Positions 30,588 to 30,615 of a stretch of 64,000 nucleotides of DNA are shown here, piece after piece (positions within the stretch are counted from its first letter, which is position 1; the number at the start of each line of letters is the position of its first letter). The stretch lies in IMG/VR virus record IMGVR_UViG_2823670853_000002. One strand, written 5' to 3'. The translations under genes and the position numbers were made by a program. The stretch comes from a virus. Taxonomy: Duplodnaviria; Heunggongvirae; Uroviricota; Caudoviricetes. The notes below the pieces were generated by a model. It was not told where the DNA came from and made no database searches. It saw only the letters and a program-made list of their open reading frames with translations.

Positions 30588-30615
30588 TATTACACTAATA
30601 AATTTATTAGAGCAA
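30588..30615. promoter_or_regulatory. Overlapping pair of C1 operator-like sites (one perfect match)
   Basis: 30599-30615 reverse complement is ATTGCTCTAATAAATTT (17 of 17); overlaps ATTACACTAATAAATTT (30588-30604, 15 of 17); located at the dmt 3' end upstream of the tRNA genes. Confidence 0.65.

What the first reader, a model, noticed from the sequence alone, without database searches (positions are those of the whole stretch)
30588..30615. Dense network of C1-operator-like 17-mers, including a perfect palindromic pair and a bipartite site
At least ten matches to ATTGCTCTAATAAATTT sit at operon starts (2171, 14769, 16861, 16910, 20535, 30588, 30599, 33876, 50534, 52214). One is a 17 of 17 match overlapping a second site, and a pair at 16861-16926 brackets a palindrome. 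This implies that a single repressor controls the accessory operon, the tRNA/ban operon, kilA-repL and immI together, so all candidate cargo genes above would be repressor-controlled.
Basis: partly seen in the sequence, partly recalled or inferred. Interest (0 to 1): 0.4.

Follow-up and report, generated by a model that had tools for sequence, protein, structure and literature searches.

The report
Phage P1 C1 repressor operator set
The repeated 17-base motif is real, but it is the long-known set of binding sites for the C1 immunity repressor of phage P1, sitting unchanged in a P1-like phage-plasmid of E. coli, so the finding is correct and ordinary.

Summary
ATTGCTCTAATAAATTT has 10 matches at 3 mismatches or fewer, against 0.3 expected. 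A weight matrix built only from P1 operators outside this window finds 11 sites at 17.7 bits or more, against 0.1 expected.

The window is 96-99% identical to phage P1 in reverse orientation. All ten sites are base-for-base identical to annotated C1 operators of P1: Olpa/Op94, OpmgT/Op88, OpmgRa and OpmgRb/Op86, O26/Op82, Obana and Obanb/Op72, Odmt/Op68, OrepL/Op53 and Oc4/Op51. The P1 promoter hexamers beside them are unchanged.

The focal site, 30589-30616, is the bivalent ban operator. It overlaps the -35 and -10 of P1ban and the dmt stop codon.

Orlf/Op55 is cut in half at a mosaic junction with a hok/sok module.

The operators are conserved islands: 1 change in 181 nt against 48 in 1115 nt of flank.

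The c1 gene lies just outside the window.

Control of the tRNA/ban, kilA-repL and immI units by one repressor is established P1 biology. Control of all cargo genes is not: the 7-kb accessory segment is only inferred to be read from PpmgT, and hok/sok, the IS91-family insertion and the replicon have no operator. This is already known.

The parts
30600..30616 (-). Obana (former Op72a): a 17/17 match to the C1 operator consensus. It contains the P1ban -35 hexamer TTGCTC (30610-30615) and the dmt stop codon (30607-30609).
   Evidence: It is identical in P1 and P7.
30589..30605 (+). Obanb (former Op72b): a 15/17 inverted half that overlaps Obana by 6 bp. Its outer end overlaps the P1ban -10 hexamer TAATAT (30587-30592).
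30587..30632 (-). The P1ban promoter (-35 at 30610-30615, -10 at 30587-30592) and the P2ban promoter (-35 at 30627-30632, -10 at 30601-30606), mapped from the P1 annotation. All four hexamers are unchanged.
   Evidence: The generic promoter scan finds nothing here, so this assignment rests on homology.
30407..30426 (-). Terminator-like hairpin followed by a run of seven T, about 160-180 nt downstream of P1ban. It lies at the end of the region that P1 annotates as 'dicF-like'.
   Evidence: It is nearly invariant in 80 related contigs. There is no Rfam DicF match.
2171..2187 (-). Olpa (Op94). It overlaps the Plpa -35 hexamer, upstream of lpa, the late-promoter activator gene (1648-2100).
14769..14785 (-). 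OpmgT (Op88). It starts at the last base of the pap stop codon and overlaps the -35 hexamers of P2pmgT and P1pmgT. It lies upstream of pmgT (13862-14590) and the 7-kb accessory segment.
16910..16926 (-). OpmgRa (Op86a). It overlaps the PpmgR -35 hexamer.
16861..16877 (+). OpmgRb (Op86b), the inverted partner of OpmgRa. An 11-bp hairpin with arms at 16874-16884 and 16891-16901 lies between the two.
19628..19644 (+). It keeps 16 of the 17 bases of the P1 site inside a diverged intergenic region, upstream of pmgN through ppp.
20535..20551 (+). O26 (Op82), in the divergent gene 26 / pmgL intergenic region. It overlaps the P2pmgL -10 and the P1pmgL -35 hexamers.
33876..33892 (-). Odmt (Op68). It abuts the Pdmt -35 hexamer, upstream of uhr-hrdC-dmt.
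50544..50560 (-). OrepL (Op53). It overlaps the PkilA (P53) -10 hexamer, upstream of kilA-repL.
   Evidence: PMC9948254.
52214..52230 (-). Oc4 (Op51). It abuts the P2c4 -35 hexamer, upstream of c4-icd-ant (immI).
   Evidence: Rfam finds the C4 RNA at 51947-52032.
48785..48795 (-). Remnant of Orlf (Op55). Only the core ATTGCTCTAAT survives, and homology with P1 ends inside the operator. A hok/sok module follows in place of rlfA and rlfB.

Best explanation
The window is a piece of a P1-like (Punavirus) phage-plasmid of Enterobacteriaceae. The 17-mers are its C1 operators: asymmetric 17-bp sites dispersed over the genome, each overlapping or abutting a sigma-70 promoter of an early or lytic transcription unit.

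In the prophage state the C1 repressor is encoded just beyond the left end of the window. It occupies these sites, helped by the co-repressor Lxc/Bof, and blocks RNA polymerase. When C1 is inactivated by Coi or by the Ant1/Ant2 antirepressor of immI, all the units fire together.

The focal site, 30589-30616, is the bivalent ban operator Obanab (Op72ab). It consists of two inverted 17-mers overlapping by 6 bp, which would bind two C1 molecules. The -35 of P1ban lies inside one half, and the -10 overlaps the outer end of the other. The site also covers the last codons and the stop codon of dmt.

Shown here: sequence identity, position, enrichment and conservation. Inferred from P1 literature: C1 binding and repression.
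For: Identity of the element:
- The window aligns with P1 AF234172 at 95-99% identity, in reverse orientation, over most of its length.
- All ten reader sites are identical to annotated 'phage repressor C1' protein_bind features of P1. The neighbouring -35 and -10 hexamers, start codons and stop codons are unchanged.

More than chance:
- There are 10 matches against 0.3 expected.
- An independent weight matrix finds 11 sites at 17.7 bits or more, against 0.115 expected.
- Nine of the 11 sites lie in the 13.7% of the window that is non-coding.

Conservation:
- The operators carry 1 substitution in 181 nt, against 48 in 1115 nt in the 60-nt flanks on each side (Fisher one-sided p = 0.005).
- In 80 viral contigs found through the Dmt protein rather than through the operator, the 28-mer is unchanged in 72. 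Nucleotide diversity is 0.008 in the operator, 0.041 in the dmt 3' end and 0.056 further downstream.
- P7 has the identical site, annotated as Op(ban).

Literature:
- The consensus ATTGCTCTAATAAATTT and 22 operators in P1 (PMC8546580).
- Op53 overlaps P53 and blocks kilA-repL (PMC9948254).
- ban, dmt, ssb and kilA are treated as C1-controlled genes and are induced on thermal inactivation of C1.100 (PMC4713147).

The closest complete relative carries coi and c1 immediately beyond the window edge.
Against: - The c1, coi and lxc genes are not in the window, and the exact source replicon was not found. The presence of the cognate repressor is therefore inferred from relatives.
- A generic sigma-70 scan does not call a promoter at the focal site. 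The promoter assignment rests on the P1 annotation.
- No binding or expression data exist for this particular element.
Confidence: 0.94

Rival explanations
1. The sites are inherited P1 operators, but they are not currently used. The replicon may have lost c1 or carry a C1 of changed specificity, so the sites would be relics.
For: The c1 gene is outside the window and the exact source was not recovered. One operator, Orlf, has indeed been destroyed by module exchange.
Against: Ten of the eleven operators are unchanged while their flanks have diverged by about 4%. The focal site is a conserved island across 80 contigs. That pattern indicates continuing selection. The nearest complete relative has c1 and coi adjacent to the window edge.
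Confidence: 0.04
2. The motif is mainly a promoter element, a shared -35 TTGCTC plus an A/T-rich stretch, or the site of another factor, rather than a repressor site.
For: In P1ban, P2pmgT and PpmgR the operator core TTGCTC is itself the annotated -35 hexamer.
Against: - Orientation and register relative to the promoter vary. The site lies over the -10 at PkilA, abuts the -35 at Pdmt and P2c4, and is inverted at O26, Oppp, OpmgRb and Obanb.
- Conservation extends over all 17 positions.
- The P1 literature attributes the sites to C1 binding.
Confidence: 0.015
3. The matches are chance occurrences of an A/T-rich word in intergenic DNA.
For: None beyond the A/T richness of the 3' half of the motif.
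Against: There are 10 matches against 0.3 expected, and no shuffle gave more than 2. The weight matrix finds 11 sites against 0.115 expected.
Confidence: 0.005

Closest known systems
Bacteriophage P1 operator Obanab (former Op72a/b), which controls the ban operon, as annotated in AF234172 / NC_005856
   Same: The 28-bp sequence is identical. So is its position across the dmt stop codon, with the P1ban and P2ban hexamers. The downstream order is the same: 'dicF-like' region, tRNA-Asn, tRNA-Thr, tciABC, a CAU-anticodon tRNA (ARAGORN calls it tRNA-Met; P1 annotates its counterpart as tRNA-Ile2), ban and dbn.
   Different: Nothing differs within the operator. There are 2 substitutions in the 60 nt on each side. 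The tciA region (28385-28885) and part of dmt differ from the P1 laboratory strain.
The P1/P7 C1 regulon: Op51, Op53, Op55, Op68, Op72, Op82, Op83, Op86, Op88, Op94, plus Op2, Op21 and Op99 outside the window. This is the tripartite immunity system immC/immI/immT.
   Same: The window has the same 17-bp asymmetric consensus, the same dispersed layout with one or two sites per early promoter, and the same genes downstream (PMC8546580).
   Different: Orlf/Op55 is truncated at a junction with a hok/sok module. Oppp has one substitution. The pmgT unit carries about 7 kb of extra genes that the P1 laboratory strain lacks.
Lambda-type CI/Cro operators
   Same: Both are repressor sites that overlap early promoters and maintain lysogeny.
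   Different: Lambda sites are symmetric, bound by dimers, and clustered at two operators beside the repressor gene. Here the sites are asymmetric and scattered over about 50 kb at nine loci. This is not a member of that kind.

Membership tests
P1-type C1-controlled operators (Punavirus immunity regulon) | Match to the asymmetric 17-bp consensus ATTGCTCTAATAAATTT | tested here: met
   Ten sites have 0-3 mismatches. Eleven sites score 17.7 bits or more with a matrix built from operators outside the window.
P1-type C1-controlled operators (Punavirus immunity regulon) | Same position as an annotated or footprinted P1 operator | tested here: met
   Ten sites are identical and one has a single substitution relative to the P1 protein_bind features, within collinear flanks.
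P1-type C1-controlled operators (Punavirus immunity regulon) | Overlaps or abuts a sigma-70 promoter of an early transcription unit | tested here: met
   Nearly all annotated P1 hexamers map unchanged onto the window and overlap or abut the sites; the one exception is the predicted PpmgN -10, which has one substitution. The generic scan recovers only Plpa and nothing at Oban, so this feature is met by homology and not de novo.
P1-type C1-controlled operators (Punavirus immunity regulon) | Site under purifying selection relative to its flanks | tested here: met
   1 change in 181 nt against 48 in 1115 nt, p = 0.005. Nucleotide diversity is 0.008 in the site against 0.04-0.06 around it, in 80 contigs chosen through Dmt.
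P1-type C1-controlled operators (Punavirus immunity regulon) | Cognate c1 repressor gene on the same replicon | not testable with these tools
   tblastn with C1, Coi and Lxc finds nothing in the window. The window starts inside pacB, about 1.1 kb short of where c1 lies in P1. The source replicon is not in the collections. The nearest relative, pUTME-12-1, has coi and c1 there.
P1-type C1-controlled operators (Punavirus immunity regulon) | Physical binding by C1, and derepression on induction | not testable with these tools
   Known only for P1 itself. Induction of ban, dmt and kilA was measured by rt-qPCR after C1.100 inactivation (PMC4713147). Op53/P53 is described in PMC9948254.
Bivalent C1 operator (Op72ab / Op99ab type) | Two 17-mers in inverted orientation that overlap by 6 bp and form a 28-bp near-palindrome across a promoter | tested here: met
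   The two sites are 30589-30605(+) and 30600-30616(-). One search reports the palindrome as 88% complementary. The site is identical to the P1 feature 'divalent operator Obanab'.
Lambda-like symmetric CI operators | Each site is dyad-symmetric, and the sites are clustered next to the repressor gene | tested here: not met
   Single sites are asymmetric, as the orientation-specific matches show. The sites are spread from 2171 to 52230.

The most novel reading that the evidence does not exclude
The 7-kb mosaic segment that natural P1-like plasmids carry downstream of pmgT includes a PAPS-reductase-like gene, two Ead/Ea22 genes and a DUF551 gene. It has no operator or strong terminator of its own. 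It may therefore be a silent, C1-repressed early-lytic cassette, for example of anti-defence or host-takeover functions, rather than lysogenic-conversion cargo.

A related reading is that C1 operators can serve as module-exchange junctions. In this window the Orlf core survives exactly at the breakpoint with a hok/sok module.
Probability: 0.3. Interest if true: 0.25.

Novelty: already known. Interest (0 to 1): 0.07.

Why it matters
It matters mainly for annotation. It identifies the window as a P1-like phage-plasmid and fixes which transcription units are silent in the prophage state: lpa, pmgT plus the accessory segment, pmgR, pmgN through ppp, pmgL, ban and the tRNAs, dmt, kilA-repL and immI. 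It also shows which parts are not under an operator: hok/sok, the IS91-family insertion, and the replicon and partition genes. That helps in judging whether accessory genes on such plasmids are expressed in carriers. It adds nothing to what is known about how C1 repression works.

Tried and rejected
- Łobocka et al. 2004 (PMC523184), the primary P1 genome paper, is not held. Operator names and roles were taken from the GenBank annotation of AF234172 and from later open papers.
- A paper search by operator names (Op72 and the others) returned only unrelated hits. One further search failed on term length.
- Rfam gave no DicF match for the region P1 annotates as 'dicF-like', even at E up to 1. 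It gave only a sub-threshold nuoG-like hairpin match on the opposite strand. I do not call that region DicF.
- The exact source replicon was sought in the phage, plasmid and E. coli genome collections. The best matches are 97-98.5% identical, so the source is not present and c1 could not be checked on the same molecule.
- I looked for extra operators inside the non-P1 segments. No site there scores above 13.2 bits, and matches at that level also occur in shuffled sequence (about one site of 14 bits or more, and four of 12 or more, per shuffle).
- The pattern scan of viral contigs is circular for conservation, because it requires an exact match to the operator. I used loci found through the Dmt protein instead.

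Full report
**Observation**

A search for ATTGCTCTAATAAATTT with up to 3 mismatches finds exactly ten sites: 2171(-), 14769(-), 16861(+), 16910(-), 20535(+), 30589(+), 30600(-, perfect), 33876(-), 50544(-) and 52214(-). The 100 dinucleotide-preserving shuffles gave a mean of 0.30 and never more than 2.

The focal pair is 30589-30616 rather than 30588-30615, and '50534' should be 50544.

The perfect site and its 15/17 neighbour are inverted and overlap by 6 bp, giving a 28-bp near-palindrome. The pair at 16861-16926 has 13-nt perfectly complementary arms around an 11-bp perfect hairpin.

**Identity of the window**

The window matches phage P1 and P1-like phage-plasmids at 96-99% identity. It is collinear with P1 AF234172 coordinates 92089 to 37153, in reverse orientation.

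It is interrupted by non-P1 segments at 6909-13895, 28385-28885, 34980-36690, 37938-40190, 48092-48784 and 63218-64000. Hundreds of E. coli, Salmonella and Klebsiella plasmids carry mosaic versions of these segments. The exact source is not in the collections.

**What the sites are**

The GenBank record of P1 annotates 'phage repressor C1' binding sites. I extracted them and mapped them onto the window. Every reader site is base-for-base identical to one of them:

| Window start | P1 operator | Former name |
|---|---|---|
| 2171 | Olpa | Op94 |
| 14769 | OpmgT | Op88 |
| 16910 | OpmgRa | Op86a |
| 16861 | OpmgRb | Op86b |
| 20535 | O26 | Op82 |
| 30600 | Obana | Op72a |
| 30589 | Obanb | Op72b |
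| 33876 | Odmt | Op68 |
| 50544 | OrepL | Op53 |
| 52214 | Oc4 | Op51 |

The -35 and -10 hexamers and the flanking start and stop codons annotated in P1 are unchanged at all of these loci.

PMC8546580 states that 22 C1 operators are dispersed on the P1 genome and gives the asymmetric 17-bp consensus ATTGCTCTAATAAATTT.

**An independent scan**

To avoid circularity I built a weight matrix only from seven P1 operators whose homologues lie outside the window: Oref, Omat, Ossb, Oc1a, Oc1c, Oc1d and Oc1e. It finds 11 sites at 17.7 bits or more, and the next best scores 13.6. The 200 dinucleotide shuffles gave a mean of 0.115 sites at 17 bits or more.

The extra site, 19628-19644(+) TATGCACTAATTAATTT, is Oppp/Op83. 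It has one substitution relative to P1 and sits in an otherwise diverged intergenic stretch.

The twelfth P1 operator expected in this interval, Orlf/Op55, is cut. Only ATTGCTCTAAT remains (48795-48785, minus strand), and homology with P1 ends inside the operator. A hok/sok module follows in place of rlfA and rlfB (sok RNA 48316-48490; Hok protein 48166-48321). Several other P1-like phages have the same arrangement.

No operator-grade site lies inside any non-P1 segment.

**Location and conservation**

Nine of the 11 sites lie mostly in the 13.7% of the window left uncovered by a greedy ORF cover (p about 7e-7).

Between the window and P1, the operators carry 1 change in 181 nt. The 60 nt on either side carry 48 changes in 1115 nt (one-sided Fisher p = 0.005).

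For the focal site I collected 80 viral contigs through the Dmt protein, not through the operator. The 28-mer is unchanged in 72 of the 80. Nucleotide diversity is 0.008 in the operator, 0.041 in the dmt 3' end and 0.056 further downstream. The bases immediately 5' of the operator are among the most variable. P7, which is only 91% identical over this 351-bp region, has the identical 28-mer annotated as Op(ban).

**How the focal site works**

Shown by the sequence:
- The P1ban -35 hexamer TTGCTC (30610-30615) lies inside Obana.
- The P1ban -10 hexamer TAATAT (30587-30592) overlaps the outer end of Obanb, with a 17-nt spacer between the two hexamers.
- P2ban is nested in the same stretch.
- The dmt stop codon (30607-30609) is inside the operator.

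Inferred from P1 biology: two C1 molecules occupy the two halves and exclude RNA polymerase. Lxc/Bof strengthens binding, and Coi and Ant1/Ant2 relieve it (PMC8546580). The work of Velleman et al. 1987 and Eliason and Sternberg 1987 is cited in PMC9948254. The monomer stoichiometry and the original Op72/ban mapping by the Schuster laboratory are from my own knowledge.

Thermal inactivation of C1.100 induces ban, dmt, ssb and kilA in P1 (PMC4713147).

Downstream of the promoter lie, in order:
- the region P1 calls 'dicF-like', which has no Rfam DicF match;
- a strong hairpin plus a run of seven T at 30426-30407;
- tRNA-Asn and tRNA-Thr;
- tciABC;
- a CAU-anticodon tRNA, which ARAGORN reports as tRNA-Met and whose P1 counterpart is annotated as tRNA-Ile2;
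- ban and dbn.

Expression of the distal genes therefore needs read-through of that hairpin.

The 6909-13895 segment encodes a PAPS-reductase-like protein, two Ead/Ea22-like proteins, a DUF551 protein and several small ORFs. All lie on the minus strand, directly after pmgT. The segment has no operator-grade site of its own, and its terminator-like matches are no stronger or more frequent than in shuffled sequence. Transcription from the C1-controlled PpmgT is plausible but not shown.

The following have no intact operator upstream, so 'all cargo is repressor-controlled' does not hold:
- the hok/sok module;
- the IS91-family transposase (35310-36518);
- the replicon variant, with a Rep3-family initiator at 38099-39019 and a T5orf172 protein at 39312-40121.

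The repressor gene itself, together with coi and lxc, is not in the window. In the nearest complete relative, coi and c1 lie just beyond the window's left edge.

**Comparison and verdict**

This is the P1/P7 C1 regulon, and the focal site is Op72ab/Oban. All sequence-level membership features are met. The presence of c1 on the same molecule, and actual binding, cannot be tested here.

It differs in kind from lambda-type operators, which are symmetric and clustered.

The only departures from P1 are one substitution in Oppp, the loss of half of Orlf at a module junction, and extra genes in the pmgT unit. The finding is correct and well observed, but it is already known, so interest is low.

Noticed in passing
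window 6909-13895: This is a clean 6987-bp segment absent from the P1 laboratory strain; both edges map to P1 coordinate 85182. It encodes a PAPS-reductase-like protein (12980-13858), two Ead/Ea22-like proteins, a DUF551 protein and small ORFs, all on the minus strand after pmgT. Many natural P1-like plasmids carry mosaic versions, so P1 itself appears to be deleted here, which would fuse pmgT to downstream sequence.
   Followed up: partly
window 48092-48829: A hok/sok type I toxin-antitoxin module (sok RNA 48316-48490, Hok 48166-48321) and a 108-aa membrane-like ORF replace P1 rlfA and rlfB. The junction with P1-like sequence falls inside the C1 operator Orlf/Op55 and leaves only its 11-nt core.
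   Followed up: partly
window 30391-30544: The first 160-180 nt transcribed from the C1-controlled ban promoter end at a strong hairpin plus a run of seven T (30426-30407) that is nearly invariant in 80 contigs. P1 annotates this as 'dicF-like', but Rfam's DicF model does not match. Positions 30450-30544 are about 77% identical to lambdoid phages. This may be a small RNA or an attenuator ahead of the tRNAs and ban.
   Followed up: partly
window 16874-16901: An 11-bp perfect hairpin lies between Op86a and Op86b and runs into a T-rich stretch. It could terminate the upstream pmgN-through-pmgQ unit, and it overlaps the PpmgR -10 hexamer.
   Followed up: no
window 34980-36690: An IS91-family transposase (35310-36518; Pfam Y2_Tnp plus Zn_Tnp_IS91) is inserted between the upfB and ppfA regions relative to P1.
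   Followed up: partly
window 37938-40190: The plasmid replicon differs from that of P1. There is a Rep3-family initiator (38099-39019) and a T5orf172-domain protein (39312-40121) where P1 has repA and incA, which suggests a different incompatibility type.
   Followed up: no
window 31719-31904: The dmt gene is 672 codons here against 754 in P1 AF234172. About 246 nt are missing or replaced in frame. P1 isolate OP279344 covers all of the 28000-34000 query, including this dmt stretch, so it may share this form.
   Followed up: no
window 30610-30615, 14779-14784, 16920-16925: In three promoters (P1ban, P2pmgT and PpmgR) the conserved operator core TTGCTC is itself the annotated -35 hexamer. The operator and the promoter element are therefore the same bases.
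   Followed up: partly
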